A stretch of 56,438 bases of DNA, from IMG/VR virus record IMGVR_UViG_3300046170_000155, positions 1 through 56,438 of that record; one strand, 5' to 3'. The notes beneath the pieces are model-generated. The model saw nothing but the letters and a program-made list of their open reading frames with translations, was not told where the DNA came from and ran no database searches. This document shows positions 745-26,610 of this stretch, in pieces (positions within the stretch are counted from its first letter, which is position 1; each line of letters starts with the position of its first letter). A program made the translations under genes and the position numbers. The DNA is from a virus. Its lineage: Duplodnaviria; Caudoviricetes.

Positions 745-1134
745 TTGAGTGTTAGATGGGAACCAGAAAACGAAACTTACGAGGAATTTAAAAAACGAAG
801 AAGTGATAGTTTTGGAATTTCGGGAATGGGGCAGAAAAAACGAGAAGGCACCGGTAAGAAGAATCTTTCAGAGCTTCGGGAGAAAGCTTTACAAAGAGCT
901 CACTACACATGTGAGTGGCCGGATTGCAATTCTAAAAAATGGCTAGAGATGGCGCATTTAAAAGCAAAGGGTATGGGTGGAGCAAACAGAAACATATCTG
1001 ATGACCCAATGAATGTTTGCATGCTTTGTAAACATCATCATGACATCTTTGACGGCAGACAACAAGTTGGTTCTCAAAGAGAATATACTGCACTACTCAA
1101 AGGATTTCTTGTATTACAATGGAGAATGAAATGA
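745..1134 (+). CDS. HNH endonuclease (terminase-adjacent)
   Basis: CEWPDC...EMAHLK..GMGG...MNVCMLCKHHHD; RBS AAGGAG before TTG; position resembles HK97 gp74. Confidence 0.85.
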   Translation: MSVRWEPENETYEEFKKRRSDSFGISGMGQKKREGTGKKNLSELREKALQRAHYTCEWPDCNSKKWLEMAHLKAKGMGGANRNISDDPMNVCMLCKHHHDIFDGRQQVGSQREYTALLKGFLVLQWRMK

Positions 1135-1412: not shown

Positions 1413-2637
1413 CAAGTATGTTCCTAAGTTACCTCCGTTACACGAGGGACAACTCAAAGTAGCTAAATCAGAAGCGCGTTGGAAAATACTATGTGCTGGT
1501 AGACGATTTGGTAAAACAAGACTTGGTGTCCAATTATGTATGGAAGTTGCTCTTAGGGGCGGAAGAGCTTGGTGGGTAGCACCTACTTTTTCTATTGCTA
1601 GAGTTGGTTGGCGTGATATCGCTGCAAGTGCAAAATCATTTCCTAGAGAAATAGAACCAACAGTATCTTTAGCTAATATGCAAATTGATTTAGCTAACGG
1701 AGGCTCTATCGCAGTTCGTTCTGCTGATAATCCACAAAGACTTCGTGGAGAGGGTCTTGACTACTTAGTTATGGACGAGGCTGCATTCGTAAAACCAGAA
1801 GTATGGGCAGAAGTTCTCAGACCTACACTTACAGAGCGTAAAGGTTCTGCTTTATTTATTTCAACACCTATTGGTAGAGATAACTGGTTTTTTGATTTAT
1901 GGGAAAATGCAGACGATGCAGAGAACTGGGAACGATTTAGATTTTCTACTACTGACAATCCTATGATTGACCCCGAAGAAGTAGAGTCTGCTAGAAAAGA
2001 AGTCGGCTCTATAGTTTTTGCACAAGAGTACTTAGCAGAGTTCGTTGACGCAGGTCAAGGTATGTTAAAGCCGGAGTGGATGAATTATTATATTATTGCT
2101 CCAGACGCAGCAGGTAATCTTAAATGTATTGTTGATGGTTCAGAATACTACTTAGATGCCCTACCTAAATACGGAGTTGTTGATTTAGCTACTACTACAA
2201 ATAAAGATTCAGATTACACAGTTATAACAAGTTTTGCACAAACGCCAGATAATAAGCTTTTAATAATAGACATGGTACGACAGAAAATGGAAGGTCCAGA
2301 CATCATACCTGCAATAAAACGAGCAATTCACAAAAATAAGTTACAATATGTAGGTATAGAACGCCAAGGTTTTCAAACCACGATAATCCAGATGGCGCAA
2401 CGAGCTGGTATTCGAGTTAGAAATCTTAAGACGGATAAAGATAAAGTTACAAGAGCTTTACCCCTAGCTGCAAGAATGGAAGCGGGAGAAGTATTTTTAC
2501 TAAGAGATACTCACTGGCTACCAGAAGTAGAGAGAGAAATAATGACTTTCCCAGCAGGTGCTCATGATGATATTATCGACACTTTGTCGTATGGTGTTCA
2601 ACTACTACAAGATAAAAAGAGCTGGAGCGCATATTAA
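1405..2637 (+). CDS. terL: Terminase large subunit
   Basis: Q-motif LHEGQ, Walker A AGRRFGKT, Walker B YLVMDEAA, coupling motif ISTP, nuclease VDLA...HDDIID; likely start ATG 1405. Confidence 0.97.
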   Translation: MTNKYVPKLPPLHEGQLKVAKSEARWKILCAGRRFGKTRLGVQLCMEVALRGGRAWWVAPTFSIARVGWRDIAASAKSFPREIEPTVSLANMQIDLANGGSIAVRSADNPQRLRGEGLDYLVMDEAAFVKPEVWAEVLRPTLTERKGSALFISTPIGRDNWFFDLWENADDAENWERFRFSTTDNPMIDPEEVESARKEVGSIVFAQEYLAEFVDAGQGMLKPEWMNYYIIAPDAAGNLKCIVDGSEYYLDALPKYGVVDLATTTNKDSDYTVITSFAQTPDNKLLIIDMVRQKMEGPDIIPAIKRAIHKNKLQYVGIERQGFQTTIIQMAQRAGIRVRNLKTDKDKVTRALPLAARMEAGEVFLLRDTHWLPEVEREIMTFPAGAHDDIIDTLSYGVQLLQDKKSWSAY

Positions 2638-4079
2638 TGGCTGAAGATAAGTCAAGATTTTCAAAAGCATTAGACTGGTTGAATGCACCAACTGATGCAA
2701 GAGTAAGAAGAGAACAAAAAGGCATTACTGTTAATCAACAGGAATATTCATTTTTAAATCAAGCTGTATACGGTTATAACACCGAATCTGGTTACTTTGA
2801 CCATAAAAAGATAGCAGAAGTAGGTGACGGCACTGGTAACTCAGCAGTTGTCGCTTGTTTAAATGTTTTAGCAACATCGTTTGCTGAACCAGGATTACTT
2901 GTCTCAAAAAGAAACTCCGAAGGAGACTATACAAGAGACATGAATCATCCACTTGCTAGATTGTTTAGAAGACCAAATCCATATATGACACAGCAGTTAC
3001 TTGCTAACTATATTGTTACATCAATTAATGCAGCAGGAGACGCTTTTATATATAAGAATAGGAACGCGAGAGGTGAAGTTGTCGAGCTAGTACCCCTTAT
3101 GCCTCATTTAGTAGAAGCTAAAGGTACACAAAACGAATTAATTACACATTACAATTATCAACCGCAGGGTGGACTTCAAGGTCAAGACAATGTAAGAATT
3201 GACAAGAAAGATATGTTTCACTTAAGACAATCTGTTGACCCTAATGATATGAGAAGAGGAATGGCTCCTCTAAGGTCAGTTTTACGAGAAATTGCTGGTG
3301 ATGAAGCAGCCGGACAATATACTGCCGCTTTATTACACAACATGGCTGTTCCCGGAGTAATCCTCTCCCCAAGAGATGATGCTATGGGTGGTCCAACGAG
3401 AGACGAAGCTGAAGCTATTGCAGATATGTATAAGCAGAAGTTTGGTGGTAAAAACAGAGGTGCTCCTATGGTTTTATCTGGTGCTATGAATGTTGAAGTT
3501 GTATCTTTTTCTCCAGACCAAATGAAGTTAGCCGAATTAAGAAGAATACCAGAAGAAAGAGTTTCTGCTGTACTTGGCGTTCCAGCTGTTCTTGCAGGAC
3601 TTGGTGCTGGTCTCGATTCTGCTACATATTCAAATACGAAAGAACTTAGAGAGTTCTTTACAGAGTCAAAAATGGTCCCAATGTGGAACATGGTTGCGAG
3701 TGATTTGACTCATCAATTGTTACGACCAGAGTTTGACGGTAACGATAATCAATACTGCGAGTATGATATCGGAAGCGTTAGAGCTTTAGCTGATGACAAA
3801 GACAACCTCTATAAACGCATGAACACTGCTGTACAAGGGGGTTGGGTAACAATTGGCGAAGCAAGAAAAGTTGTAGGACTAGAGGCTGATAATAGACATG
3901 ATGTTTATTTAAGACCTCTTAACATGATTCAAGTAACAGAAGATGGTAGTCCACTTTTAAATGAAGGTGGAACAGATACAGCTGACAAACCAACTAATGA
4001 TAATGACGATGATGAGTCTAAAGCAACATTGACTACTCGACTTTACCTCCAGAGTACAGAAGAGAAGAAGAAGTATTGA
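2637..4079 (+). CDS. Portal protein, HK97 family (probably continues to 5322 across indels)
   Basis: V.ACLNVLA, RPNPYMT, GDAFIY, GMAPL, N.AVPGVIL, VLGVP..LAG, ATYSN, WVTIGEAR; directly after terL. Confidence 0.95.
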   Translation: MAEDKSRFSKALDWLNAPTDARVRREQKGITVNQQEYSFLNQAVYGYNTESGYFDHKKIAEVGDGTGNSAVVACLNVLATSFAEPGLLVSKRNSEGDYTRDMNHPLARLFRRPNPYMTQQLLANYIVTSINAAGDAFIYKNRNARGEVVELVPLMPHLVEAKGTQNELITHYNYQPQGGLQGQDNVRIDKKDMFHLRQSVDPNDMRRGMAPLRSVLREIAGDEAAGQYTAALLHNMAVPGVILSPRDDAMGGPTRDEAEAIADMYKQKFGGKNRGAPMVLSGAMNVEVVSFSPDQMKLAELRRIPEERVSAVLGVPAVLAGLGAGLDSATYSNTKELREFFTESKMVPMWNMVASDLTHQLLRPEFDGNDNQYCEYDIGSVRALADDKDNLYKRMNTAVQGGWVTIGEARKVVGLEADNRHDVYLRPLNMIQVTEDGSPLLNEGGTDTADKPTNDNDDDESKATLTTRLYLQSTEEKKKY

Positions 4080-5322
4080 CTACACCTACAAGACTTGACC
4101 AAGGAAAAAGTTGCACTTGATAAAGATATGTTTGACAATCCAGGCAGAAGCTATTGAAAGGTCTAAAGAACTAAGTTGTTCTCTTGGTGTACACAGTCAT
4201 GAAGTAGATGGCAAAGAAGTCTTTATGCCTTGTAAGACACATGAAGAATATGAAGAAGCTGTCAGTAAACCTAAAAAGTCTAAAGACATTGAGGAATTAA
4301 AAGTTTCTTTAGAAGAAGCTGAAACAATGTACGAAAAAGGAGACAAACTGAATAGTCCAGAAGAAAAAGCACCAGATAAAGTAACAAACTTTCCTAAGAG
4401 TGGAGATAATCAGAAAATAAGTTTATCTAACTCACAACATAAACAATTTCCCTAGTCACGCTTATGTTAAAGATTTAAAAGAAAACTGGCCAGAGATTTG
4501 GAGAAGAGCAGGTACCGGTGGTAATCCTCCTACTTCATTTACTGGTAACGATGCTTTCAATAGATGGACAGCTTACAAAGGCGGAGACAGAAGCGAATCA
4601 GTTCTTAACTGGGTTAAGAGAAGAGAACGCTTTATGAATCGTCACAAGAAGAATAACAGACTTAACGGAACTATTGCTGTTATGAAATGGGGCGGTGTAA
4701 CTGCTGGTGGTGTTTCACAAATGAAATCAGTTGTTAATGATTACAAAAAAGTTATTAGAGAGCGTAGAAAAAAATCTCTTAATATAGCTGAAGATTACTT
4801 ATTGAAAGCAGTATCTGAGTAGAGTAAGAACTGCTCTTACTAAAAAAGTAAAAGACCATAACTGCTAAAAATCCAAAGCATAGAGCAACACTGAGAATGC
4901 TTATTGCAGTATTCAACAGAGGTGTTGGTGCATACAGAACTAACCCCGGTTCAGTCAGAGGCAATGTTACATCTGCTGACCAGTGGGCAATGGCCAGAGT
5001 TAACGGTTTTATAAGAGCATTAAGAAGTGGTAAGTTTAGAAGAAAACCTTACGACCAAGATTTACTACCAAGCTCACATCCATTGTCATCTAAAAAATCT
5101 GGAACTAAAGCAGAGTCAGTTAGAGCAGGACAAGCAGTTAGTTGGTCAATCAATAAAGACCCAGACCCACCTTCAATTGTTCACGGTATTGTTACATCAG
5201 TAAGTGATGACGAAGCAACTGTTATGGTATGGGCTCGTTTAGAAAATGGTCAACATCAGAAGACAGATAGAAGTGTTAAAGTGCTTATCTCAAAGCTCAG
5301 AATAATATCTGACTTTAGATAA
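4040..5322 (+). CDS. Multi-domain C-terminal extension of the portal (frameshifted in this assembly)
   Basis: ORF pieces 4111-4455, ~4452-4822 and 4897-5322 join through single-base indels, with no internal RBS or start seen. Contains a C.GVHSH...MPC..H module, an RGVGAYRTNP...QWAMARV module and an SH3/Tudor-like tail. Confidence 0.65.
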
Positions 5323-5401
5323 TAAAACACTAAAAGTCGAAATCATATTATACAATAATTAAAACGCGCTTCTACAAATTTATATTGTAGAATATTGAGG
5401 T

Positions 5402-6648
5402 ATGATGAACAACGAATCTAAAAATATAGACATAGAGTTAAAAGATGACTCTGGTCAAGTAGAAGCAGTATTCAGTCTATTTAACTCTCTTGATAGTGAT
5501 GGAGATGTTGTTGTACCGGAGCTGTCAAATCTGGTTTTAAAAATAATCAAGTACCTATGGTTTGGTCTCACAAATGGGACATGCCTATTGGTAAAGGTAC
5601 AATCGCACAAGATAATGATAAAGCAGTATTTAAAGGCGAATTTTTTATGGACACAGAGTCTGGTAAAGAAGCTTATAATCTTGTAAAAAATATGGGCGAT
5701 ATGCAACAATGGTCTTTTGGCTATAAAGTAAACGATTCCGAGTTTGCTAAAGCAGAAACACAAAATGGTGAAACAGACGCTAGATACCTTAAAGACCTTA
5801 CAGTTTACGAAGTTTCTCCTGTTTTAGTTGGAGCTAATCAAGATACATATACTCTTGCTATAAAGTCCAACACAGAATTACTTAAAGAAATTACAAAAGA
5901 AAAAAGTGGAGAAGAAGAAGTTGAAGTTTCTTCTACCTGTGCTTGCAACTGTGGTTCTAAAAGTGATGAAGATGACAAAGAAGAAATGAAGTCTTGCAAA
6001 TATCACGAAGGTGGTGCTTGTGCTAAAGATGGTAAAAAATCTGAAGCTAAAGGTAAAGGCGAGTGTAAATATGGTAATGGAGGTAACTGTATGAAAGAAT
6101 ATGATGACGAGAAAAAGTCAGACGAAGATTTAGAAGTTTCACAGGAAGACAGCAAGTCTTTCTCTGAAGAAGTCAAAGATGTGCTTGCTGCATTGGATGA
6201 CTTAGTAGCCCGAGCAAAAGCTATTTCTATGCTCAGAGGCGAAGATGGGAGAAAATTAGGCGTTAAAGCCACCGAAGCACTTCGTGCAGTCGCAGACGAC
6301 TTAAACGATGCTTGGACCGAGATTGATGAGTTCATCGGACATGTCGGAACCGAGGGTGCTTTGGAGTTAGAAGTAGATGAAGAACTTGTGGAAGATGAGC
6401 CAGCCGAATCTGAAGAGGTAGCTGAGGCTTCAACTGATACTATTGATGTTGAAACAGAAGTCGAAGAAGTTACTGAGGAAGAAGCACCAGCAGAGGAATC
6501 TGTTGATGTAGAACCGGAAGATGAAGCTGCTGAAGAAGAAACTCCAGAAGATAACACTGATTCCTCTGACGAAGAATTTGATGCTGAGTGGGTGAGGGCA
6601 CAGCAAATTATTGCTGAATCCTTAGTCGAAGAAATAGAAGAAGTATAA
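5402..6648 (+). CDS. Prohead protease (HK97 family) with long acidic C-terminal extension; frameshift ~5520
   Basis: F..LDSDGDVV / MVWSHKW..PIG, WSFGY, YEVSPVLVGAN; between portal and capsid genes. Confidence 0.92.
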
Positions 6649-6674
6649 GCAATAACGATTGGAGAAATCCCAAA

Positions 6675-7918
6675 ATGAGTAAACAAAAAGAACTCATGGA
6701 CCAAATCGCTGTTAAAAGAGCAGAATTAAAATCTGTTTTTGAATCCGCTGAAGACGGCAAGTACAACTCTGACCAAAAAGAAGAGATTAAGTCAAGAAAT
6801 GACGAACTTGCTGGATTAGTCGAAGACCTTTCAATTGAGAAGAAAAAAGCTTCCAATGAAAAAGCTCTCGAAGTAGATTCAAAACCCGTTGCAGAAATGC
6901 CGTTAGCTAATAACGAAGGTTCAGAAGCTAAATCTGTTGGACAGCTATTTACAGAGTCCGAAGCCTACAAAATTATGTAGGTACAGGGGTCAAAGGTATT
7001 GACTCAAAAGTTGAGACAAAAACATCACTAACAACTACAGGATATCCACCGGAAGTCTTAAGACAACCTGGAATCTTGGAGACATCTCTTAGAGACCCTA
7101 ATGCTGTTATATCATTATTTGATGTAATTAACACAGACCAAAATGCTTTCTCATACCTTGAGGAAACAACCTTCACAAACAATGCAGCTGAAGCTGCTGA
7201 AGGTTCAGCAGTCGGTGAAGCAGCATTAGCTTTCACAGAGCAAACAGAAGCAATCCGTAAAATGGGTATTTTCATCCCAGTTACAGATGAATTATTAGCA
7301 GACGAATCTGGTATTCAAGGTTACTTGAACTCTAGACTTCAAACAATGATTAGACTTCGTATGGACAGCCAACTCCTTAGTGGAGACGGTACTGCTCCAA
7401 ACTTAGAAGGAATCTTGGACGCTGGTAAATCTGGTGTTGGTAGCACAGACTTTAGCTCCTATGCAGGAACTTTAGGAAAAATTGGAGCTATCTACGGAGC
7501 AATCACTGACATTCGTGTCAACGCATTCACAGAACCAGATGCAATTATTATGCATCCTAATGACTGGAATGACATTGTCACATCTGTAGGTGCAGACTTT
7601 GCAGGAACTTCATCCGCTGGATATACAGAAAAGTCACCACTTTTCGTAGCAGCAGGTGGAATGGGCGCAGGTCCTTCAGCACAAATCTGGGGACTAAAAG
7701 TAGTTCCTACAACCGCAATTTCCGCAGGTACAGTACTTGTTGGTAAATTCGGTGGTGGCGAAGCAGCTAATGTCGTTATGAGACAAGGTATGGAAATAGC
7801 CGTATCTGATTCACATAGCGATTTCTTTACAAAGAATCAATTAGCAATCAGAGCTACTATGAGAGTCGGTTTCCCTGTTTACAGGCAAGCAGCTTTTCAT
7901 AAACTAACAAATATGTAA
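6675..7918 (+). CDS. Major capsid protein (HK97 fold); frameshifts ~6975 and ~7050
   Basis: Coiled-coil delta domain ending EAK|SVGQLF; EG...E...F, IPVTDELLAD, LLSGDGT, IMHPNDW, IWGLKVV, FTKNQLAIRA..R...AAF; RBS GGAG. Confidence 0.95.
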
Positions 7919-7941
7919 TATTCGTTAGTAGCGAAATTTCA

Positions 7942-15616: not shown

Positions 15617-18600
15617 ATGAATCAAGATTTAAGAGTAACTTACGAATTAGTACAAACTAAAGTACAAAACAAAGCAGCTAAACAGACTGAAAAGTCTATG
15701 AAGAAGTTAACAACTCAAGCTGCACATACAAACGCTATGGTTTCTGGTGCTGCTGGTGCAATGGCTGGTGCTCTTGCCGCAGTAGGTGGAGCAATGTTCT
15801 TAACAGTAGGTGCTGCTTCTAAATTTGAAGATTCATTTGCTGGTATTAGAAAAACTGTAGATGCAACCGAAGCACAATTTAGTACACTAGCACTTCAAGT
15901 AAGACAACTAGCGCAAGATATACCAGTTGCTGTAACTCAGTTAAATCAAATTGGTGAACTTGGTGGTCAGTTAGGTGTAGGAGTTGAGAACCTAGAAGAA
16001 TTTATTGAAGTTATTGCACAGGTAGGTGTTGCAACAAGACTGTCAACAGAATCAGCAGCACTATCATTAGCACGACTTGACCAGATATTTGGATTACAAG
16101 GTAAAAGTTTCGATAGATTAGCTTCTTCATTAGTTGACTTAGGTAACAACTTCGCAGCTCTGGAAGATGAGATACTTTCTACTGCATTGAGGCTCGCAGC
16201 AGCAGGTAAAGTTGCTGGTGCTACAGCAGCAGATGTTTTAGGTATTGCAACAGCACTTCAAGCAGTCGGTGTTCAGTCACAAGCTGGTGGTACAGCTATG
16301 GCTCGTGTATTCCAACAAATTCAAATTGCAGTTGCTACAGGTGGTAGACAGTTAGAAGTATTTGCTGAGACTACAGGCTTAACAACAAAAGAATTTCAAG
16401 ACTTAGCTAAAGTAGACCCAGCTTCAGCTCTTAACTTATTCGTTACATCATTAGCTTCTGCTTCTAAAGCAGGTACAAATGTTATTGAAGTTCTTGACCA
16501 ATTAGGTCTTAAACAACAGAGAACAATCAGAGCGTTACTTGCTGTGGGTGAAGCAGAAGGACTATTAACAGATACTCTTGCAACTGCTAATAGTGCTTTT
16601 GAAGCAAACATAGCATTAACTACTGAAGCAGAAAAACGATTCGAGACATTTAAATCAGAAACAAAACTTTTGATGAATGAGCTTACGGAATTAAGAATAC
16701 AAATAGGTAATGAATTACTACCTACTGCAAAAGCTCTTGTTACCACATTGTCTGCTCTAATTGGAGGTTTCCAAAATACAAGTGAAACATCTGAAGGTGT
16801 AGGAACAAGTGTAAAAGTCTTGTTTGGAATTATTGTTTCTATGACAGCAGCAACTGCTGCACTTGGAGCGGCAACTAAAACTTACAACGCTATTGCATTA
16901 GCTAACGGTATTACTGTTGAGGACTTAGGTAAAAGAATAAAAAGAAATGCTAAAAATATGAGTAGGTCTACTAAAACAGCAAAAGCTTTACAAAAAACAA
17001 TGGTTGGCTTAAGATTTTCAATGATTGGATTAGGAGTCGCTCTTGCTGCAATAACTGTTGCATATACTATATTTACCAGAAGACAAGAAGCTGCTAGAAG
17101 AGCTTCAGAAAGTTTTTTAGCAAATAGAGCAGCTGTTGCAAGCATAACAGAAAAAGTAGCAGATAAAGAAAAGGAACTACAAGACTTAATAAATTCAGAA
17201 GATATGTCGGAAGCAAGATTAGATTTACTGAGAGCAGAACTCGATAAACTTAGGGAAATAGAAGAGCAGATAAAGAAAAAATCTATGATAGATTTCTTTA
17301 AACAAGCAGGGATAGATGGAGAATCTGCTGAAGAAGCACAAAAATCATTAGAAGATGTTGGCGGTGCTATTACTGATTTTTATAATTCTGGTTTAGGAGA
17401 GGACATCAAAGTTAGTGTCGCTGGTGCTGGATTGGAAGCTTTTCAGTTTAACACAGCAAACGAAGCTGCATCAGAGTTAAATGATGGTTTAAAAGGTGTA
17501 GGTTTATCTTTAGAAGAATTATCAACCTTAACACCAGACCAGTTATTAGATACTTTAGGATTACTAGAGGCTAAGGGTGTAGATGCGTTCAAACTTTATT
17601 CAAAAACAATAGAGCCAATTGTTAGAACTAATAGACATTTAAATGCTGGTGCATTGGAACTCAATGAAACTCAAGATGCACAATTTGAAACTTTAAGAAG
17701 AAACGCAGCAGGATTAGAAATTATTCAAAAAGCTCTTGTAGAAACAGATGTAAGTGAAAAAGCATTAAAAGATACTATACAAGAAAATGTAGACGCTTAT
17801 AACGAATTAGATACTAGACAAGACGAAGTAGCCATATCTTTGACAGATGTTCTTGACGGAACTTTAAGTTATGTTGATTTATTAAAAGCATTAGATGGAG
17901 AGCAAGAAAATTCAGTAGACTCTGCTCAACAATTAGCAGAAGCTACATTTGCCCTATCAGACCAAGTAACTGATAATATAAATAAATTCAGAGATTTAAA
18001 CTCAGTGCTTCAAGACTTCGGAAGAATAGCACCAATGAATTTAAACCAAATGTTAACTGGAATGGAAAAAGCTGATGAAAGAGCAGATTTCCTAAGAACA
18101 ACAGTTATAAGTCTTGCTAAATCTGGATTTGTTCCTTTATCTAAAGCTTTAACTGATTTACCTTTACAGGAAAGTATTGGATTAGCTTTAACCTTAACAG
18201 AAGAATTGTCAAAGTTAAAAGAATTAGAAAAATTAAATATTGGAAATGAAGAAGATACCCCAGAATTAATAGCACAAAGAGACATTATTGCTGACATTCA
18301 AAATATGTTAACCAGAGATAATCCAGAGTTAAGAAGCTTAACTTTTAATGACGAACAGTTGAAAACTTTTATAAATGAACAAGAAAGATTAATTACAAAT
18401 ACAGAATATATTGACCAAGTTAATAATAATCTTACAGTCCAAGCTGAAGGTCAATTAGAGTTAGAAAGACAACAAGCAGAAGCAGCTTTACAAATATTTA
18501 ACATTGCAAGACAAGAAGAAGAAACTAAAGAAAGAATAGCAGACCTTCAAGAAGAAATGGTTGAAATGACTGCTGATATTGTAGCTAATGGTTTTGTTAT

Positions 18601-19744
18601 TACTCAGCAGCAAATTAGACAATTAGAAGTTACAGAAGCACAAGAAGGATTTTCAGAAGCAATAGCTGAATTTGGTAAAGAAGGTGTTGTAACCAATAAT
18701 GAGCAATTAGCAATTTTACAAGCTCAATTAAATCTACAGAGAATGAGAGATAAAATTGAAGGTACAATGTCTAATCGTGACAAAATAAGAATTAGAGATA
18801 AAAAGAAAGAAATTAAATTTTTAGAAATGGCTGTTGAGCAAGGAGTAGCTGAACAGTTAGATTTAGATGCAGCTAAAGATGAATTATCAGATTTAGAAAA
18901 TCCTATATCAGATGCTGAACTTGCTATTTTAAATCTTCAAGAAAAAATTGCAGACGCACAACTTAAAGTACTTGAGAGTCAAAAGAAAAGACTTGACCCG
19001 TCAGTTGTGGAAGCAATAAAAGCCGTAGCAGCAGCCCAGTCTTTAGAAGCAGATGCTGTAGAAAAATATGCTGATAAAGAGCATGACTTAGCTGAAGCAA
19101 TGATAGAAGCAAGACTGCAAACTGAAAAAAATGCACTAATCATAGATGAGCTTACAAGAAAATATCCGGGACTACAAGGAATCATTACTGAATTAGCAAA
19201 AGATATAGGCATTCCAGAATCAATACTTCAATCAACATTAGATGCAATGACTACAGTTGAGGCTAGCTACAAAAAGAAAGTTGAGGATATGGTTCTAGCT
19301 GGTAGAACAGCTTTGTTTGACATAAAAGAAATAACTGATTTCATAGATGCAGAAATGCAAAAACAAGCAGGCTATTTCAATAATCTTGATATAAACTACA
19401 CACCTCGTGACACTAGCGATGTAAATAAAAGACAATACACCTTACATCAATTTGGTGAACGAACAATGAACAATTACACAGGTGGTAATGTTCCTATTGG
19501 TAGAACATCAATAGTTGGTGAAAGAGGACCAGAAGTTATTATGTCAACACCGGGTGGTACATCAGTATTTTCTAATAAGACAGGTGGAGGAGTAGGCGGA
19601 ATTAATGTTGCTCACATGGATGTCAATATTACAGGTTTACCAGCAGACCCACTTTCTGCAAGAAAAGCTGCTATAAATATAAGAAAAGAACTTATGAAGC
19701 TAGAAAAGGAAGGAACCTCCGGTACAGGTTTAAGGAATAGATAA
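15617..19744 (+). CDS. Tape measure protein (TP901-like core)
   Basis: 1375 aa, helical and Ala-rich; FEDSFAGIRKTVD, LGNNFAA.E.EI, AGGTAM; C-terminal GG.V...VGERGPE. Confidence 0.95.
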   Translation: MNQDLRVTYELVQTKVQNKAAKQTEKSMKKLTTQAAHTNAMVSGAAGAMAGALAAVGGAMFLTVGAASKFEDSFAGIRKTVDATEAQFSTLALQVRQLAQDIPVAVTQLNQIGELGGQLGVGVENLEEFIEVIAQVGVATRLSTESAALSLARLDQIFGLQGKSFDRLASSLVDLGNNFAALEDEILSTALRLAAAGKVAGATAADVLGIATALQAVGVQSQAGGTAMARVFQQIQIAVATGGRQLEVFAETTGLTTKEFQDLAKVDPASALNLFVTSLASASKAGTNVIEVLDQLGLKQQRTIRALLAVGEAEGLLTDTLATANSAFEANIALTTEAEKRFETFKSETKLLMNELTELRIQIGNELLPTAKALVTTLSALIGGFQNTSETSEGVGTSVKVLFGIIVSMTAATAALGAATKTYNAIALANGITVEDLGKRIKRNAKNMSRSTKTAKALQKTMVGLRFSMIGLGVALAAITVAYTIFTRRQEAARRASESFLANRAAVASITEKVADKEKELQDLINSEDMSEARLDLLRAELDKLREIEEQIKKKSMIDFFKQAGIDGESAEEAQKSLEDVGGAITDFYNSGLGEDIKVSVAGAGLEAFQFNTANEAASELNDGLKGVGLSLEELSTLTPDQLLDTLGLLEAKGVDAFKLYSKTIEPIVRTNRHLNAGALELNETQDAQFETLRRNAAGLEIIQKALVETDVSEKALKDTIQENVDAYNELDTRQDEVAISLTDVLDGTLSYVDLLKALDGEQENSVDSAQQLAEATFALSDQVTDNINKFRDLNSVLQDFGRIAPMNLNQMLTGMEKADERADFLRTTVISLAKSGFVPLSKALTDLPLQESIGLALTLTEELSKLKELEKLNIGNEEDTPELIAQRDIIADIQNMLTRDNPELRSLTFNDEQLKTFINEQERLITNTEYIDQVNNNLTVQAEGQLELERQQAEAALQIFNIARQEEETKERIADLQEEMVEMTADIVANGFVITQQQIRQLEVTEAQEGFSEAIAEFGKEGVVTNNEQLAILQAQLNLQRMRDKIEGTMSNRDKIRIRDKKKEIKFLEMAVEQGVAEQLDLDAAKDELSDLENPISDAELAILNLQEKIADAQLKVLESQKKRLDPSVVEAIKAVAAAQSLEADAVEKYADKEHDLAEAMIEARLQTEKNALIIDELTRKYPGLQGIITELAKDIGIPESILQSTLDAMTTVEASYKKKVEDMVLAGRTALFDIKEITDFIDAEMQKQAGYFNNLDINYTPRDTSDVNKRQYTLHQFGERTMNNYTGGNVPIGRTSIVGERGPEVIMSTPGGTSVFSNKTGGGVGGINVAHMDVNITGLPADPLSARKAAINIRKELMKLEKEGTSGTGLRNR

Positions 19745-20226
19745 TGATAAAGAAGATAAAAGATAATATAGGTTTAGTTGCAACAGCTATTGCCCTTATG
19801 GGTTCAATTGGTGCAGGAGTGCAATCAGTCGGACAAATAGTTAATACACTTCAAGGTATTGATGAAAGAATGGTTGGAATAGAAATAGAGTTTGAACAAC
19901 TCAAACAAGACACAATGGTTTCAAATGATATTGCAGTTCTTTATGAAAAAATAGAAGACTTAGAAATAGCTGCACAGAATGTTGGCAAGTTTAATGAAGA
20001 GATAGCTACCTTACAAGCTAACTTATATAACTTAGAGCAACAGGTTAGAGATGGTGGGTTTGATTTAGATAGATATTACTTACTAGAAAAGTGGGAGTAT
20101 CAAGACCTTAATGACTCAATAACTAGAGCCGAAACACAAGTTCAAGTCGTTACTAATAGTTTGTGGGAACTTAACGATTTAAAAACTAGATTAGCTTACT
20201 TAGAAGCAGCAGGTCATGGACACTAA
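19744..20226 (+). CDS. Hypothetical protein, N-terminal membrane segment plus coiled coil
   Basis: KKIK then hydrophobic IGLVATAIALMGSIGAGV, then heptad repeats. Confidence 0.7.
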   Translation: MIKKIKDNIGLVATAIALMGSIGAGVQSVGQIVNTLQGIDERMVGIEIEFEQLKQDTMVSNDIAVLYEKIEDLEIAAQNVGKFNEEIATLQANLYNLEQQVRDGGFDLDRYYLLEKWEYQDLNDSITRAETQVQVVTNSLWELNDLKTRLAYLEAAGHGH

Positions 20227-20227
20227 A

Positions 20228-20350
20228 ATGATAGACAACAAAGAAAAACATTACTTGAAAGCTTGTAAATCAGATTTTAAATGTGGTAATTATTTTTATG
20301 GACCTAAATATCAGTACTGTGAAAAATGTAGAGCAAAGGATATGTGCTAA
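20228..20350 (+). CDS. 40-aa Cys-rich peptide
   Basis: MIDNKEKHYLKACKSDFKCGNYFYGPKYQYCEKCRAKDMC; fills the gap exactly and its stop overlaps the next ATG. Confidence 0.6.
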   Translation: MIDNKEKHYLKACKSDFKCGNYFYGPKYQYCEKCRAKDMC

Positions 20351-21606
20351 TGGCTAATACAGTAACAATAGGTAGATTAACTTTTACATCTCCATCTAAC
20401 TTAGCTTACAATGGTGGTGCTAAAACAAGAAATTATACCCTTAGTGGAACAATTGCTCCTACAGGTGCAAATGGTTTAGATGTATCAGAAGCAAAGTACA
20501 TAAGAGATGAATTAGTCTCTATGGCTAATTACGACATAGTATATCCTTTTACCTACACAGGTGATACAACAATTTCTGCTTATGTAAAAATAGAGAGCGC
20601 AGATGTTAACATTGACAGGTTTTTTGGTGCAGGTATGAAATACAATGTCTCATTGAACTTTTTAGGTAATCCCGGAGAACTAAGATTTGAATCACAATTT
20701 TCTGGTGGTGTTTTAGATAATGACCATAGTGTAACTTCTACAGACTCACAATTCTTTTCTCCACCTGTAGGTGCATATTCTATACACATACCTTCAGTAG
20801 GTACAGGAAATCCTCCTGCACAAGAAGATAGAATTGCTTCTTATGGTACTTCTACAGTAACTCTTAAATACTTTAGTGGAGATAACATAAGAACCGACAA
20901 TATAGAATTTGAGTGTAATCCAGAAGATTATCTAAAAGGTGCTTGCGAGATATCAACTAACAGTAGAGTTAGATGTGGACTATATAGCCCTAATACAAAT
21001 GTAGACCAGACTGTTATAAGTAATGGTCTAATAAAAATGGAGTTAACAAATAGTAACACTCAGTCAAGATTTACAACCAGCTTATGGGAAAGCGATGGTT
21101 GGAGAAGTGATAAAGAATTTGCTGTATCTAAAGGTTCTTCTGAAACTGAATGGGATGGTTGGAAGACAGTACAAATAATTAAAAACTATCCAGAGTGTGT
21201 AACAGTTAGATTTACAGCAAACTCAGAAACAAATGGAACAGGAAGATTAACCTTTGATGTTTCTCTCAGAAGAGGTTCAAGATATTTTAGCTTAGTAATT
21301 AATTCATACGGAACTGCTGACCGTATAACAATTAAAAGAACTACGGCAGAGGCATCAACTTCTGCAACAGGATATATAGTTTCTAGTTCAAATGATAGTG
21401 AAGGAAATTATTACTTATTAGGTTCGCCTAATACATTTACAGCAGACACAAGTGATGGTGGGATTTACCTTACAGCTACTCAAATGAAAGCATTTGTAGG
21501 ATATGCCTTAAACGGCTCTTCTTCTGCTGGTGAAAATACACCAGACAATGTTAGAGATTCTTATCTTGATTATATATATGAGTATGTAAGGTCAATTAAG
21601 TCATGA
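20350..21606 (+). CDS. Minor tail protein (distal-tail position)
   Basis: Ser/Thr/Gly-rich beta-type protein between tape measure and large tail protein. Confidence 0.7.
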   Translation: MANTVTIGRLTFTSPSNLAYNGGAKTRNYTLSGTIAPTGANGLDVSEAKYIRDELVSMANYDIVYPFTYTGDTTISAYVKIESADVNIDRFFGAGMKYNVSLNFLGNPGELRFESQFSGGVLDNDHSVTSTDSQFFSPPVGAYSIHIPSVGTGNPPAQEDRIASYGTSTVTLKYFSGDNIRTDNIEFECNPEDYLKGACEISTNSRVRCGLYSPNTNVDQTVISNGLIKMELTNSNTQSRFTTSLWESDGWRSDKEFAVSKGSSETEWDGWKTVQIIKNYPECVTVRFTANSETNGTGRLTFDVSLRRGSRYFSLVINSYGTADRITIKRTTAEASTSATGYIVSSSNDSEGNYYLLGSPNTFTADTSDGGIYLTATQMKAFVGYALNGSSSAGENTPDNVRDSYLDYIYEYVRSIKS

Positions 21607-24600
21607 GTGTAAATGAAAAGTTAATGGCTCCGGGAACATTTAATGTTTCCTTAAGTTTAGAGACCACACCTAATTCAGTTATAAATGCAATGGTTCCATG
21701 GGGAAATATTGTCTTAACTCCAACAAGAATAAACCCAGATGAATTTACAGATGCTCAAGTAAGAGATTTAGCAAGATATGTAGGTATTGTTCAAACACAA
21801 GAAATAAGTGAAGAAGGAATTGAAATAGGTGGTAAAGGTATTCTTACTTATCTAGGAGATAATGATTCTAGAGGTTTAGTGCTTGCAAGAAATGCTGGTA
21901 TAGGTGCTGTTAGAGATTATCAGAGAGATACTTTAGATGATGTACTAGATAGAAATACATCAACACCTAATGGACTACTAAGAGATGAAGCAGGAAATGT
22001 AAGAGCAGTAAGAAAAGGTACAGTAACAGAAGTTTCTTTTGACGACACAGTACTTCTTTTAAATTTTGAGGGAAGCAATGGAGATACTACTACTACTGAT
22101 GGCTCTGTATTTACATCTAATCAAGTTATTACTTTTAGTGGAACAGCAGATATTTCTAGTGACCAAGCAAATTATGGAAATACAAGTCTTAATCTAAGTA
22201 CAGACGGATTTGTAACCGTAGCAGATAGACCAGAATTAGATTTAACTTATCAAGAGTTTACAGTCGAATGGTGGGAGTATAGAACATCTTCTAGTGGTAA
22301 TCCTACCGTCATGGCTAGAAACAATGATACATACTCTCCATGGATATTTGGTAAAGCTGTTAATGGAAGAAACAAAGCTTTTATTACTCACGATGGTAAT
22401 GGATATGGAACAGATGAAGACTTAAATATAGATATGGGTTCTATTGATTTAAATCAATGGAATCATTTTGCTATTTCACATAAAGGCAATAAGTTTAGAA
22501 CTTATAAAAATGGTGTACAGGTAGCAGAAGAAGATAGACCAGAATTATTTATCAGAGTTAGTTCAGACTCTTTACAGATTGGTAAAGGACAAGACGGAAA
22601 CTTTTTTGAAGGTTATCTTGATGGAATAGTTGTAACTAGAGGTGCAGCAAAGTATTGGGACGCATTTACTCCTAGTACTTCTGCACCTGTAGCTACAACA
22701 TCTAACAAAACTTATACAGGTAAACACTATTTAGAAGGAGCGTATAAAGCTCTAAAAACAGTAGCAACAGCACTAGGCGCTGAGTTTAAAATTAATAATA
22801 ACGGTACATTAGATGTTGGCCCCGCTTCTAGTTTGTTTACTGGTCATGAGGATAACGAACCCCAAGGAATTATAGTAAGAAGATTATCTGGGCAAGACCC
22901 TTCAATTAAAGGTTATGATGGTTTTGATTTAACAACAGAGTTTAATGCAGAAGATTATGTAAGTCGTGTAGAACTTATTGCAAACGGTAATGGAAAAGAA
23001 ATTAACTTAGGTCAAGCTGATGCTAAGAACATTCCATATAAAGACTTGTTTGGCAATCCTTTAGAGAGAATACAGATTTTAGCAGAAAATGAAATACCAG
23101 ATAATCTAAGAGATGTTAGAGCAGAAGCTTACCTTAATGAATATAACAAAATAGATAAAACATTAAATGTAGGTCTATCAGACTATGACATATCGGGAGA
23201 TATTAGTGTTGGAGATGTTATCTATGTATACGACCCAGAAGTAGGTTTTGAAGATACACAAGATGAGGCAACACTAGAAAACAGAGATAGATATGAAATT
23301 ACATATCAAGGTCAAATACTAAACCCTATAAAAATTAGAATAATGGGTTTATCTTTTCCTATATCAGAAGGTATGGGGGTTTATTACAGAGATGCTAATG
23401 GTAACTATACAGATATAACTGATTACACAAATTTTGAAGTAGGAAGTACTCAAATAGAAGTAGGTTCTACTACACCAAATATAAATGAAGATTTAAGAGC
23501 TACTGGTTCAATTGTTTCAATTGGAAGTACTAACGAATATCATGTACCAGACGCTCCTACTAACTTAACAGTAGCAAAAGGTACTTATCAAGATGGTAGT
23601 GGTAGACCTTTTGCTTTTGCTCGTTTAAGTTGGACTGAGCCAAATAACACAGACGGTTCAAGAATTACTGACGGTAATATGTATCGTGTTAGGTATAGAC
23701 AAGTTACAGATGTTGACGGAAACAATCTTATAGATAGTAACGACAATCAAGTCACAGATTATGAATATTTATCTGTTTCCTTTGGAACTACTACAACAGT
23801 TATTAAAGGATTAGGTGTAAGTAATACTTATGAGTTTGGAGTACAAGCTATAGATAACTCTGGTTTTTCTGCTGGCTATTCTATTATTACAGCAGAACAA
23901 ATGCCTGTTGACGGTACTATACCACCTGCACCTGTAGCACCTACAGGAACTTTTGGAGCAATAGCTTCTAATGCAGCACAAATACAAATATCTCATAAAT
24001 TAGCAGCTGCTGAAGATGCAGATGGTAATGCAATAAACTCACCAACAAACTTTACTTTACCTAGAGATATTGACCATTTGAATGTGTATAGAAACACAAG
24101 CTCATCTTTTACTCCTAGTGCTAGTACTTTTGTTGGAGAGATACAAGCAAGAGCTGGACATATAGACGGAGAAATAACAGCTATAAATACTTTTATTGTT
24201 AGTACAGCAGGTACATGGTATTACAAACTTACAGCAGTTGATGTAGCTGGAAATGAATCTGACCCATCTACTGCTCAACAAGCAGAACACGAATTAATAA
24301 CTAAAGAGTATATCGCAGACGCAGAAATTACAACTATAAAAATTGGTGAAGCACAAGTAACTGATGCAAAAATAGACACTATGACTGCTGCTAAAATTAC
24401 AGCAGGAACTATTAGTGGTAAAGAAATAATAATTGATACAGATAGTGCTACCGACCCATCAAACCCTGTATTGGGAACAATACGAAGTAATAATTATGTA
24501 ACAAATACATCTGGTTGGATTATAAAATCTGATGGCTCTGTTGAGTTTGAAACAGGAACATTTAGAGGAAATTTAGATGCAGCAGGCGGTACATTTTCTG

Positions 24601-26105: not shown

Positions 26106-26278
26106 TGCACGAATTAACAGAACAAGAAAAAGAAGCTCTTTTATTATTACAAATAAAACAAGCTCGTGAAATATTGTATGGTGCTCAAAATATTGAAGAA
26201 GATGAAGAAACCATAAATCATTTACAATCAAAAGTTAATACATTAGAAGCTAAATATACAGAACAATTCGGTGAATAA
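26105..26278 (+). CDS. Small coiled-coil hypothetical protein
   Basis: 57 aa MHELTEQEKEALLLLQIK...; TAATG coupling at both ends. Confidence 0.65.
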   Translation: MHELTEQEKEALLLLQIKQAREILYGAQNIEEDEETINHLQSKVNTLEAKYTEQFGE

Positions 26279-26610
26279 TGGCTGAAGAAGTAGAGCCTAA
26301 AAAAGAGCCAAAACCAAAAAAAAATAATAATTTTGACTATAGATTACATAGTCATGGCGATAAGTTAGCTTATTTACTTGACCAAATGTTTGCTTTGGAA
26401 GGAGCTTTATTTGCTCACAATATAAATATGTTGGACGAGAATCATTCTATGTATCACGAATGGAAAGAAAAACAAACACAAATAGAAAATGAAATATTTA
26501 GATTGAGATACATCTATGAAAAAATGGGGGGTGCTTGGGAAAACCTACAAGATATAGAGTGGGAAGATTCAGTTGACGAGTACGGAGAACCCATAGATGA
26601 CACAGACTAA
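26278..26610 (+). CDS. Hypothetical protein
   Basis: 110-aa ORF coupled to neighbours. Confidence 0.7.
   Translation: MAEEVEPKKEPKPKKNNNFDYRLHSHGDKLAYLLDQMFALEGALFAHNINMLDENHSMYHEWKEKQTQIENEIFRLRYIYEKMGGAWENLQDIEWEDSVDEYGEPIDDTD

What the first reader, a model, noticed from the sequence alone, without database searches (positions are those of the whole stretch)
2637..5322. Portal apparently fused to a multi-domain cargo polyprotein with protease-like Lys junctions
Seen: after the portal core, reading continues through single-base indels to 5322 (~890 aa in total) with no internal RBS seen. Modules: a Cys/His unit (AEAIERSKELSCSLGVHSHEVDGKEVFMPCKTH, DUF3721-like from memory), an unknown ~130-aa basic domain (TNFPKSGDN...WPEIWRRAG...MKWG), an RGVGAYRTNP...QWAMARVNGF domain (DUF5824-like from memory) and an SH3/Tudor-like end. 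Modules are preceded by K|A/V/S junctions (ESK|AT, EK|VA, ELK|VS, EEK|AP, LLK|AV, GTK|AE), like the capsid EAK|SV junction. Established: the HK97 protease cuts the capsid precursor after a Lys. Inference: the portal carries cargo domains into the prohead, where they are released and possibly ejected as DNA-binding or anti-defence factors.
Basis: partly seen in the sequence, partly recalled or inferred. Interest (0 to 1): 0.8.

Follow-up and report, generated by a model that had tools for sequence, protein, structure and literature searches.

The report
Portal protein carrying capsid-interior cargo modules
This marine phage's portal gene really does run on into about 420 extra residues of small uncharacterised domains, a known kind of portal-cargo fusion, and the breaks in the reading frame are assembly errors, not separate genes.

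Summary
Window 2637-5322 is one gene of about 893 codons. It is cut into seven frame pieces by six 1-base indels at 4038, 4101, 4145, 4453, 4819 and 4864. Of 60 non-redundant IMG/VR relatives, 42 carry one uninterrupted ORF from the portal to the same C-terminus, and 13 more are still open at the contig end. At least four of the five insertions hold both alleles of a polymorphic site side by side, which is a consensus artefact.

The protein is an HK97-family portal followed by: an acidic linker, DUF3721 (Cys/His), an invariant 25-residue block, a basic helical "TNFP" domain, DUF5824 (basic three-helix bundle) and an SH3/Tudor-like barrel.

The same modules occur in shuffled order in 1291 protein clusters. 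There they are fused to portals, MuF, prohead proteases and protease-capsid fusions, all of which face the capsid interior. Carriage inside the head is therefore well supported by inference.

Release by cleavage after Lys is only partly supported. The junction lysines are invariant in 37 of 37 close relatives, but only the Lys-Ala before the barrel is clearly kept in distant ones.

No known fold or function was found for the helical modules. Portal, MuF and protease-fused multidomain proteins are already described (Iyer et al. 2017), so this is a new member of a known kind.

The parts
2637..3960 (+). Portal core (HK97 family), about residues 1-441
   Evidence: PF04860 matches residues 69-412, E 2.9e-60. 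The relative's core matches solved portals: RcGTA 6tba E 4.2e-18, HK97 8cez E 2.1e-8, T5 pb7 9ilp E 1.9e-4. Those chains end within about 10 residues of the aligned core.
3961..4127 (+). Variable acidic linker (…NDDDESK|ATLTT…PPE…RLDQGK), read in three frames because of indels at 4038 (-1) and 4101 (+1). The false stop TGA lies at 4077-4079.
   Evidence: K of 'ESK' is the only invariant column in the first ~30 columns of the linker, 37 of 37.
4128..4263 (+). DUF3721 Cys/His module (MFDNP-AEAIERSKELSCSLGVHSHEVDGKEVFMPCKTH…), broken by a +1 indel at 4145
   Evidence: PF12518 E 1.8e-5, 24.8 bits (cut-off 27) in the window. 53.2 bits in P0121. The C..H…C..H pattern is kept in all DUF3721 copies of the 37-sequence alignment. 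The module is optional, in 0-2 copies at two insertion points.
4264..4370 (+). Conserved block …KPKKSKDIEELK|VSLEEAETMYEKGDKLNSPEEK|
   Evidence: 17 of its 25 columns are invariant in 37 of 37 relatives (L016 residues 552-576), while DUF3721 modules come and go on either side.
4371..4807 (+). Basic helical 'TNFP' domain (APDKVTNFPKSGDN…WPEIWRRAG…MKWGG…EDYLLK), broken by a +1 indel at 4453
   Evidence: No Pfam or PHROG family. AF2 gives six helices at pLDDT mostly above 90. T-[ND]-F-P is kept in 69-70 of 70 distant homologues. Net charge +15, pI 10.2 in L016.
4808..5109 (+). DUF5824 module (AVS.RVRTAL…NRGVGAYRTNPGSVRGNV…QWAMARVNGF…DQDLLPSSHPLSSKKSGTK), broken by +1 indels at 4819 and 4864
   Evidence: PF19141 E 6.1e-5, 23.6 bits (cut-off 25). 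60 of 106 representatives match at E<=1e-3. AF2 gives a three-helix bundle. pI is above 8 in 116 of 124 homologous modules.
5110..5322 (+). SH3/Tudor-like beta-barrel end (AESVRAGQAVSWSI…RIISDFR) and stop TAA at 5320-5322
   Evidence: AF2 strands at 255-311 of the 317-residue model. VIA-align: 6wau_A Z 7.3 / rmsd 1.8 / 54 aligned; 6kco_A Z 7.0. Absent in the natural variants L056 and L057, whose ORF stops after PLSSKK.
5402..6648 (+). Prohead protease (Peptidase_S78) with Cys-rich and acidic C-terminal part. Broken by a -1 indel at 5518. The candidate processing enzyme.
   Evidence: PF04586 E 9.1e-16. Intact at 419 and 416 aa in L016 and L007. Indel placed. Contigs of runs X2 and X6 carry an extra A or G at 5517.
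6675..7918 (+). Major capsid protein (HK97 fold), broken by a -1 indel at 6969
   Evidence: Intact at 413 and 414 aa in relatives. Matches HK97 gp5: 1ohg E 5.2e-27.

Best explanation
Window 2637-5322 is a single gene for an HK97-family portal protein of about 893 residues. The six frame breaks in this record are consensus errors made at polymorphic sites of a mixed phage population.

After the portal crown, which in solved homologues faces the capsid interior, comes an acidic linker and a string of small independent modules. These are DUF3721 (probably a metal-binding Cys/His knuckle), an invariant 25-residue block, a basic all-helical 'TNFP' domain, the basic three-helix DUF5824 domain and an SH3/Tudor-like barrel. 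Each virion would therefore take up 12 copies of this string inside the head, riding on the portal.

My reading is that these are capsid-interior cargo or accessory modules, probably nucleic-acid binding. Different phages load them by fusing them to whichever head-assembly protein faces inwards: the portal C-terminus, MuF, the prohead protease N-terminus or the protease-capsid N-terminus.

Shown: one ORF in relatives; the module architecture; the fusion partners; the conserved positive charge.

Inferred, with my odds: interior location 0.75; DNA or RNA binding 0.45; clipping by the adjacent S78 prohead protease after the conserved junction lysines 0.35; exit with the DNA into the host 0.3.
For: One gene:
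- Of 60 non-redundant portal reading frames in IMG/VR relatives, 42 run uninterrupted to the same ...ISDFR end. 13 are still open where the contig ends. 5 are otherwise: 2 natural stops before the barrel, 1 in-frame stop and 2 broken.
- In the protein collection, 118 of the 120 best hits to the extension also carry PF04860.

Artefact:
- Large ORFs elsewhere in the window (1375, 1500, 911 and 1472 aa) are intact.
- At 4145, 4453, 4819 and 4864 the window holds both alleles seen singly in relatives: G/C, T/C, A/G and C/T.
- In the rows shown for short-read contigs of four other runs, some contigs at 4102 and at 4450/4453 lack one base relative to the window, and some at 5517 add an A or a G.

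Interior cargo:
- 1291 representative clusters match the last 317 residues at E<=1e-3.
- Module order is permuted and modules occur singly.
- Among the 106 representatives of 330 aa or more, out of the 150 listed: Peptidase_S78 22, S78_2 17, Phage_portal 24, Phage_Mu_F 10, Phage_capsid 9. Known polyvalent-protein enzymes also appear: UDG 4, PAP2 2, 2H/LigT 1, Zeta toxin 1, GNAT 1 (examples).
- Salinibacter phage gene 3_10_11 is basic domain + DUF5824 + S78. Roseobacter phage CRP-823 has a DUF5824 gene between its portal and its protease-capsid fusion.

Charge: DUF5824 has pI above 8 in 116 of 124 homologues, median net charge +8. In L016 the basic domain is +15 and DUF5824 is +11.

Junctions:
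- Five lysines are invariant in 37 of 37. K463 is the only invariant residue in its stretch of variable linker.
- Optional DUF3721 inserts are bounded on both sides by K|A or K|I.
- The K-A before the barrel is kept in distant clusters: 22 of 31 and 25 of 31.
Against: - There is no direct evidence of encapsidation, cleavage, DNA binding or ejection.
- In distant relatives there is no fixed Lys before the basic domain, and only 46 of 97 have K or R before DUF5824.
- The K722|A723 junction sits between two confidently modelled helices (pLDDT about 88-94), not in a loose linker.
- K554 and K576 lie inside a fully conserved block, so their invariance says little.
- The close relatives are 75-93% identical on average per region, so invariance among them is weak evidence.
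- The capsid 'EAK|SV' is about 27 residues upstream of the HK97-equivalent cut.
- Where the modules are fused to the capsid protein (9 of 106), hundreds of copies per head would result. That fits an assembly-phase role followed by degradation better than retained cargo.
- The helical modules have no confident fold match: best Z 7.1, Foldseek E above 0.2.
- The read check used contigs of other samples, not raw reads of the source. Only 3 of the 8 gene-breaking indels appeared in the rows shown; 41 rows were hidden.
Confidence: 0.62

Rival explanations
1. The extension is a permanent part of the portal and is never released. It would act in assembly or packaging, for example by contacting the protease, scaffold or capsid delta domain to nucleate the prohead, or by holding or sensing the packaged DNA at the crown.
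For: The modules are as conserved as the portal core: mean pairwise identity is portal 0.916, basic 0.933, DUF5824 0.880, barrel 0.882. The fusion partners are all assembly proteins. Capsid-protein fusions imply hundreds of copies, which is hard to reconcile with retained cargo. No enzyme domain is present in this protein. The positive charge suits contact with packaged DNA.
Against: Module order is freely permuted, modules occur alone, and the SH3-like end is dispensable in L056 and L057. That is odd for a fixed structural interface. The modules co-occur with effector enzymes typical of injected polyvalent proteins. The portal-module linker is long, acidic and variable.
Confidence: 0.25
2. 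The modules are enzymatic or inhibitory anti-defence effectors injected with the DNA, as the first reader suggested as one option.
For: DUF5824 has many near-invariant polar residues: R, R, Q, W, R, D.D..P..HP. Its relatives share polypeptides with UDG, 2H phosphoesterase, GNAT, Zeta toxin and PAP2. Portal- and MuF-fused effectors are described in Iyer et al. 2017 (PMC5512222; passages read).
Against: No catalytic family or fold was detected. Conservation is high rather than fast-evolving. DUF5824 is a 95-residue three-helix bundle, which is small for an enzyme.
Confidence: 0.08
3. The window is correct as written. The portal ends at 4079 and the downstream pieces are separate small genes or a decaying pseudogene in this particular phage.
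For: The record as deposited has the stop and the six frame changes. Three of 60 relatives also show defects in this gene: L011, L015 and L064.
Against: None of the pieces has its own plausible start at its homology boundary. One indel cuts inside the DUF3721 domain. The essential protease and capsid genes are broken the same way. Four insertions are allele doublets. In the rows shown, contigs from other runs lack one base at 4102 and 4450/4453 and add one at 5517. CheckV rates the record 97% complete.
Confidence: 0.05

Closest known systems
Phage-type polyvalent proteins with portal, MuF or assemblin-like peptidase fusions (Iyer, Burroughs, Anand, de Souza, Aravind 2017, J Bacteriol, PMC5512222; passages read)
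   Same: Several unrelated globular domains sit in one polypeptide with a virion head domain. They are encoded in the late, terminase-portal module. They are proposed to be packaged in the head and delivered with the DNA. Proteolytic processing into units is proposed. Relatives of the present modules share chains with 2H, GNAT, UDG and Zeta domains.
   Different: This protein has no detectable enzyme domain and no zincin-like metallopeptidase. Its modules (TNFP domain, DUF5824, DUF3721) gave no match to any LPD or other named Pfam family in my scans. 'ChaB', 'SH3', 'Tudor' and 'marine' are not in that paper's main text; its supplements were not seen. The candidate processing enzyme here is the neighbouring S78 prohead protease.
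MuF/SPP1 gp7-type minor head proteins and MuF-fused toxins (as summarised in PMC5512222; Jamet et al. 2017 recalled, not read)
   Same: The gene position is right after the portal. The role is as head-interior carrier of variable C- or N-terminal modules. 10 of 106 representatives join the present modules to Phage_Mu_F, e.g. P0140 portal-DUF5824-basic-MuF and P0125 barrel-DUF5824-MuF.
   Different: There is no MuF domain in this protein. The portal itself is the carrier.
T4 internal proteins and Alt: loaded into the prohead by a targeting sequence, cut by the prohead protease gp21 and injected with the DNA (Alt is summarised in PMC5512222; IP details recalled)
   Same: Small basic proteins inside the head, released from a targeting part by the head protease and leaving with the DNA. 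This is the working model proposed here.
   Different: T4 uses a short N-terminal targeting peptide and the scaffold core, a different protease family, and cuts after Glu. Here the targeting would be covalent fusion to the portal and the proposed cuts follow Lys. Nothing has been shown experimentally.
HK97 head maturation: protease gp4 cuts capsid protein gp5 after Lys103, and cargo can be encapsidated through the protease's targeting region (recalled: Duda, Oh, Hendrix 2013; not read here)
   Same: The S78 protease and HK97-fold capsid protein lie next to the portal. Protease N-terminal fusions of the same modules are common: 39 of 106 carry S78 or S78_2.
   Different: The cleavage specificity of this phage's protease is unknown.

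Membership tests
HK97-family portal protein (Pfam PF04860) | Profile match above the curated cut-off over the whole portal core | tested here: met
   204.6 bits against a cut-off of 39.1; residues 69-412 match profile positions 1-319 of 321.
HK97-family portal protein (Pfam PF04860) | Sequence homology to solved HK97-family portals, with the gene directly after the large terminase | tested here: met
   RcGTA portal 6tba E 4.2e-18; HK97 portal 8cez E 2.1e-8. TerL lies at 1309-2637 (Terminase_6N and 6C).
HK97-family portal protein (Pfam PF04860) | Dodecameric ring at one capsid vertex, with the C-terminal crown inside | not testable with these tools
   Inferred from solved homologues only.
Phage-type polyvalent / portal-fused cargo proteins (Iyer et al. 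2017) | Two or more further globular domains in the same polypeptide as a virion head domain, in a terminase-portal phage | tested here: met
   The AF2 models show two helical domains and a barrel, plus DUF3721. One ORF in 42 of 60 relatives.
Phage-type polyvalent / portal-fused cargo proteins (Iyer et al. 2017) | Contains enzymatic or known nucleic-acid-binding effector domains | tested here: inconclusive
   None was detected in this protein by Pfam, PHROGs, PDB sequence or fold searches. Homologous modules share chains with UDG, PAP2, 2H, GNAT and Zeta in 9 of 106 representatives.
Phage-type polyvalent / portal-fused cargo proteins (Iyer et al. 2017) | Packaged in the head and delivered to the host | not testable with these tools
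   Needs virion proteomics or infection assays.
DUF3721 (PF12518) | Profile match above the cut-off (27 bits) | tested here: inconclusive
   The window copy, cut by the indel at 4145, scores 24.8 bits, E 1.8e-5. P0121 scores 53.2 bits. PF12518 is precomputed for P0001 and most of the top hits.
DUF5824 (PF19141) | Profile match above the cut-off (25 bits) | tested here: inconclusive
   The window scores 23.6 bits, E 6.1e-5, covering profile positions 71-121 of 127. Relatives score 29.4 bits (P0142), 27.1 (P0200) and 26.0 (P0127). The nearest ESM Atlas clusters are DUF5824, score 0.93.
SH3-like small beta-barrels (Tudor/KOW/chromo/SH3) | Five-stranded barrel that superposes on solved members | tested here: inconclusive
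   The model has five strands. Nearly all of the top 50 VIA-align rows are such barrels: Z 5.5-7.3, best is 6wau_A Z 7.3, rmsd 1.8, 54 aligned. This is below the tool's Z 8 caution line. No Pfam hit.
MuF / SPP1 gp7 family (PF04233) | Phage_Mu_F profile match | tested here: not met
   No match in any piece of the window gene at E<=1. Present only in some homologues of the modules.
Substrates of HK97-type (S78) prohead protease | Cleavage at defined sites during head maturation | not testable with these tools
   Only conservation of candidate lysines could be examined.
Sigma-factor region 2-like helical domain (considered for DUF5824) | Fold match clearly above background | tested here: inconclusive
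   About 19 of the 50 rows are sigma-factor or RNA-polymerase holoenzyme entries, aligned to residues 148-221. Z is only 4.4-6.3, below the tool's caution line for helical bundles.

The most novel reading that the evidence does not exclude
DUF5824, the TNFP domain and the small barrel are a very large, undescribed family of basic nucleic-acid-binding 'internal head proteins' of HK97-like marine phages. DUF5824 is also found in giant viruses. They are loaded by covalent fusion to any inward-facing head protein, cut free by the S78 prohead protease after acid-preceded lysines, and leave with the DNA to protect or prime it. This would be a portal-borne counterpart of the T4 internal-protein system.
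Probability: 0.2. Interest if true: 0.7.

Novelty: new member of a known kind. Interest (0 to 1): 0.42.

Why it matters
The gene is misread in the deposited record as a 480-aa portal plus fragments. In relatives it is annotated simply as 'HK97 family phage portal protein'.

The extension belongs to a module set present in more than a thousand 50%-identity protein clusters of mostly uncultured phages, all of them attached to head-assembly proteins. No paper in the searched library mentions DUF5824 or DUF3721.

If these modules are packaged and released, they would be among the commonest virion-carried proteins of marine siphophage-like viruses. They would also give a simple, testable model of cargo loading by portal fusion.

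If they stay on the portal, they define a new crown elaboration that touches the packaged DNA. Either way the claim is an inference from architecture, not a demonstrated function.

Tried and rejected
- DNA search of the phage collection with 2600-5400 found no match. The nearest cultured portals are only 33-35% identical: Sinorhizobium phage Aussie and Microcystis phage Mwe-Yong1.
- PHROGs gave nothing for the four modules.
- PDB sequence searches with the single protein and with the profile gave nothing usable.
- Foldseek against PDB gave no hit at E<=1e-3 for either model. The best for the helical pair was a cyanophage A4 pre-ejectosome chain at E 0.23, probability 0.25, which I treat as noise.
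- VIA-align on the helical domains gave Z of at most 7.1 (gamma-secretase subunit, mimivirus sulfhydryl oxidase, sigma region 2). All are under the tool's caution line, so no fold is assigned.
- BFVD returned only homologues. Some are named 'prohead protease', 'XkdF' or 'ChaB', which reflects their fusion partners.
- Reading TGA as a sense codon does not rescue the frame: after the 4077 TGA the frame meets a second TGA at 4155 and then a TAA.
- The apparent indel at 7932 is intergenic and is shared by two relatives, so it is natural variation and not an error.
- Literature searches for T5 portal processing by its head protease found nothing usable, so I make no claim about it.
- Earlier notes of this scan gave nothing for this genome.
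- I did not run complex prediction because I claim no specific binding pair.
- In the read-laying table some bins had no contig cover. That is not evidence of anything.

Full report
**What is in the window**

The window is a 56,438-base IMG/VR virus record rated 97% complete. Its left end holds an HNH gene, the large terminase (1309-2637), a portal ORF (2637-4079, 480 aa; PF04860 at 204.6 bits), a prohead protease (Peptidase_S78) and an HK97-fold capsid gene.

Between 4022 and 5322 the + strand has six further open pieces in changing frames. The protease and capsid genes are each split in two as well.

**One gene, broken by artefacts**

IMG/VR holds many close relatives:
- One search returned 66 loci with portal identity of 79-93%.
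- In one search, 167 stretches encode relatives of the basic piece; the best 80 were kept, at 82-99% identity.

In these relatives the portal runs straight on. L016 2626-5307 is 893 aa and L007 1273-4065 is 930 aa, both with intact protease and capsid genes.

After removing duplicates, 60 portal reading frames remain:
- 42 are continuous from the portal to ...ISDFR.
- 13 are still open where the contig ends.
- 2 (L056, L057) stop naturally after PLSSKK and lack only the barrel.
- 1 has an in-frame stop.
- 2 are broken.

In the 5.8-billion-protein collection, 1047 proteins of 491-1563 aa match the extension. Of the 120 best, 118 also carry PF04860.

Alignment of the window to L004 (94% nucleotide identity) and L061 (91.5%) places the indels as follows:
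- Single-base indels at 4038 (-1) and at 4101, 4145, 4453, 4819 and 4864 (+1 each).
- 5518 (-1, protease) and 6969 (-1, capsid).

A ninth difference at 7932 is intergenic and is shared with two relatives.

The big tail ORFs of the window are unbroken, so the errors cluster in the head module, where many co-occurring strains are similar. At 4145, 4453, 4819 and 4864 the window carries two bases where relatives carry one or the other. At 5518 the missing base is a four-allele third codon position.

In the rows shown for short-read contigs of four other runs, some contigs lack one base at 4102 and 4450/4453 and some add A or G at 5517. Only these three sites appeared in the rows shown; 41 rows were hidden, and these are contigs of other samples.

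I put about 0.9 on assembly artefact.

**Anatomy of the protein (L016 numbering)**

- The portal core spans 1-444. Solved homologues end about 10 residues after the aligned core.
- A variable acidic linker follows.
- There are 0-2 DUF3721 modules at two alternative insertion points. Some relatives also have a further small Cys/His module (KYIAEMPNG..C..H...KCF).
- An invariant block spans 552-576.
- The basic domain spans 577-722.
- DUF5824 spans 723-815.
- The barrel spans 823-893.

AlphaFold2 with 60- and 63-row alignments gave mean pLDDT of 86.2 and 88.2. The models show six helices (basic domain), three long helices (DUF5824) and a five-stranded barrel.

The barrel resembles Tudor/PWWP/KOW/SH3 domains, Z up to 7.3. 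The helical domains have no convincing structural neighbour. DUF5824 draws many sigma region-2 rows, but at Z of 6.3 or less.

Both helical modules are strongly basic, and for DUF5824 this holds in 116 of 124 homologues.

**Where else the modules occur**

An exhaustive HMMER search with the last 317 residues found 1291 representative clusters at E<=1e-3, of which 488 are at E<=1e-10.

Among the 150 listed, the modules appear alone and in both orders (basic-DUF5824, DUF5824-basic, barrel-DUF5824) and at the N-terminus, the middle or the C-terminus of proteins of 91-1270 aa.

Pfam scans covered the 106 of these that are 330 aa or longer; the 44 shorter ones were left out. Results:
- Peptidase_S78: 22
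- Peptidase_S78_2/XkdF: 17
- Phage_portal: 24
- Phage_Mu_F: 10
- Phage_capsid: 9
- DUF3721: 18
- UDG: 4
- PAP2: 2
- ChaB: 2
- 2H/LigT, Zeta toxin and GNAT: 1 each

Examples:
- P0136: basic-DUF5824-S78-capsid
- P0140: portal-DUF5824-basic-MuF
- P0125: barrel-DUF5824-MuF
- P0127: barrel-DUF5824-S78

In cultured phages:
- 183 Salinibacter phage records carry basic + DUF5824 at the N-terminus of an 852-aa protein that holds a weak S78 match. It lies just upstream of the capsid gene.
- Roseobacter CRP phages have a DUF5824 gene between the portal and a protease-capsid fusion.

The common denominator of the portal C-terminus, MuF, the protease and the capsid N-terminus is the inside of the prohead. 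This rests on established knowledge of HK97-like heads and is an inference here.

**The Lys-junction idea**

Points in favour:
- The five candidate lysines (K463, K554, K576, K722, K822) are invariant in 37 of 37 unique full-length relatives.
- K463 is the only invariant column in its ~30-column stretch of otherwise variable linker.
- Optional DUF3721 inserts begin right after K576 and end with ...K|AP, so each bead brings its own K|A or K|I boundary.
- In distant clusters the residue before the barrel is K in 22 of 31 and the next is A in 25 of 31. This dipeptide lies in a low-confidence segment eight residues before the first strand.

Points against:
- K or R precedes DUF5824 in only 46 of 97, though after an acidic run.
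- There is no fixed Lys before the TNFP domain.
- K554 and K576 sit in an invariant block, so their invariance is uninformative.
- K722 lies between two well-ordered helices.
- The capsid 'EAK|SV' (K85 in L016) is about 27 residues upstream of the residue that aligns with HK97 Ser104. Lysines 111 and 115 lie at the aligned position.

So cleavage after Lys is possible but unproven; I put it at about 0.35.

**Comparison with what is known**

Iyer et al. 2017 (PMC5512222; passages read) describe 'polyvalent proteins' in which effector domains are fused to MuF or portal domains. They note that assemblin-like peptidases sit at the C-termini of some. They propose packaging in the capsid, delivery with the DNA and proteolytic processing into units.

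The present protein fits that class in architecture and context. It lacks any recognised enzyme or metallopeptidase. Its modules matched no LPD family in my Pfam scans.

Full-text searches for DUF5824 and DUF3721 returned no papers. This is not proof that the modules are undescribed under other names, and supplements were closed.

Earlier notes of this scan report similar portal-cargo fusions in other genomes, one of them with Lys-Ser/Ala junctions. Those notes are unchecked leads, not support.

**Verdict**

- This is a real and very common portal-cargo fusion, misassembled in this record.
- It is a new member of a known kind. The function of its modules is unknown and their release is untested.

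Noticed in passing
window 5402-6648 and 6675-7918: The prohead protease and the major capsid genes are each split by a single missing base (5518 and 6969). Relatives have intact genes of 416-419 aa and 413-414 aa. Any annotation of this record will miscall the whole head module.
   Followed up: yes
window about 5930-6130 (protease ORF 5557-6648, residues ~125-190): Between the S78 domain and the acidic C-terminal part, the protease carries a Cys-rich insert with a repeated CKY(H/G)xGGxC(A/M)K motif. It is conserved in L016 and L007. It may be a small metal-binding element; no family was assigned.
   Followed up: no
window 745-1134: An HNH-type endonuclease-like ORF (…CEWPDCNSKKW…HHHDIFDG…) lies just upstream of the terminase, the usual HNH-terminase pairing of cos-type packaging. 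The HNH label comes from reading the sequence, not from a tool.
   Followed up: no
L001 (Salinibacter phage 3_10, OR896253.1) 2852-4545: Directly upstream of the module-protease gene sit a TnpB/Cas12f-like gene (Cas12f1-like_TNB, E 1.3e-20) and a 64-aa ORF matching ribosomal protein S15 (PF00312, E 5.3e-10).
   Followed up: no
L002 (Roseobacter phage CRP-823, PV211013.1) 4340-5056: The 238-aa DUF5824 gene is annotated 'major capsid protein'. It overlaps the following protease-capsid fusion ORF (5016-7268) by 41 bases. The label looks wrong, and the two ORFs may be one frameshifted unit.
   Followed up: partly
L056 and L057, ORF end near 4039 / 4263: These are natural variants of the portal fusion. 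They stop right after ...HPLSSKK and lack the SH3-like barrel, with the protease gene following normally. The barrel is therefore dispensable, and the boundary lies at the proposed junction.
   Followed up: yes
relatives such as L007 2650-3000 and L036: Many relatives carry an extra small module (KYIAEMPNGxYCVIxHxDGxIIKCFxTRxEAExFLNN) ahead of the conserved block. Its only weak match is phrog_3002 at E 0.0088.
   Followed up: partly
ESM Atlas clusters: DUF5824 also occurs with DUF5754 in a cluster of Nucleocytoviricota proteins. The module is therefore not confined to tailed phages.
   Followed up: no
window 15617-34846: Four very large intact ORFs (1375, 1500, 911 and 1472 aa) follow the head and neck genes. 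They are presumably tape-measure, tail or fibre proteins and were not examined.
   Followed up: no
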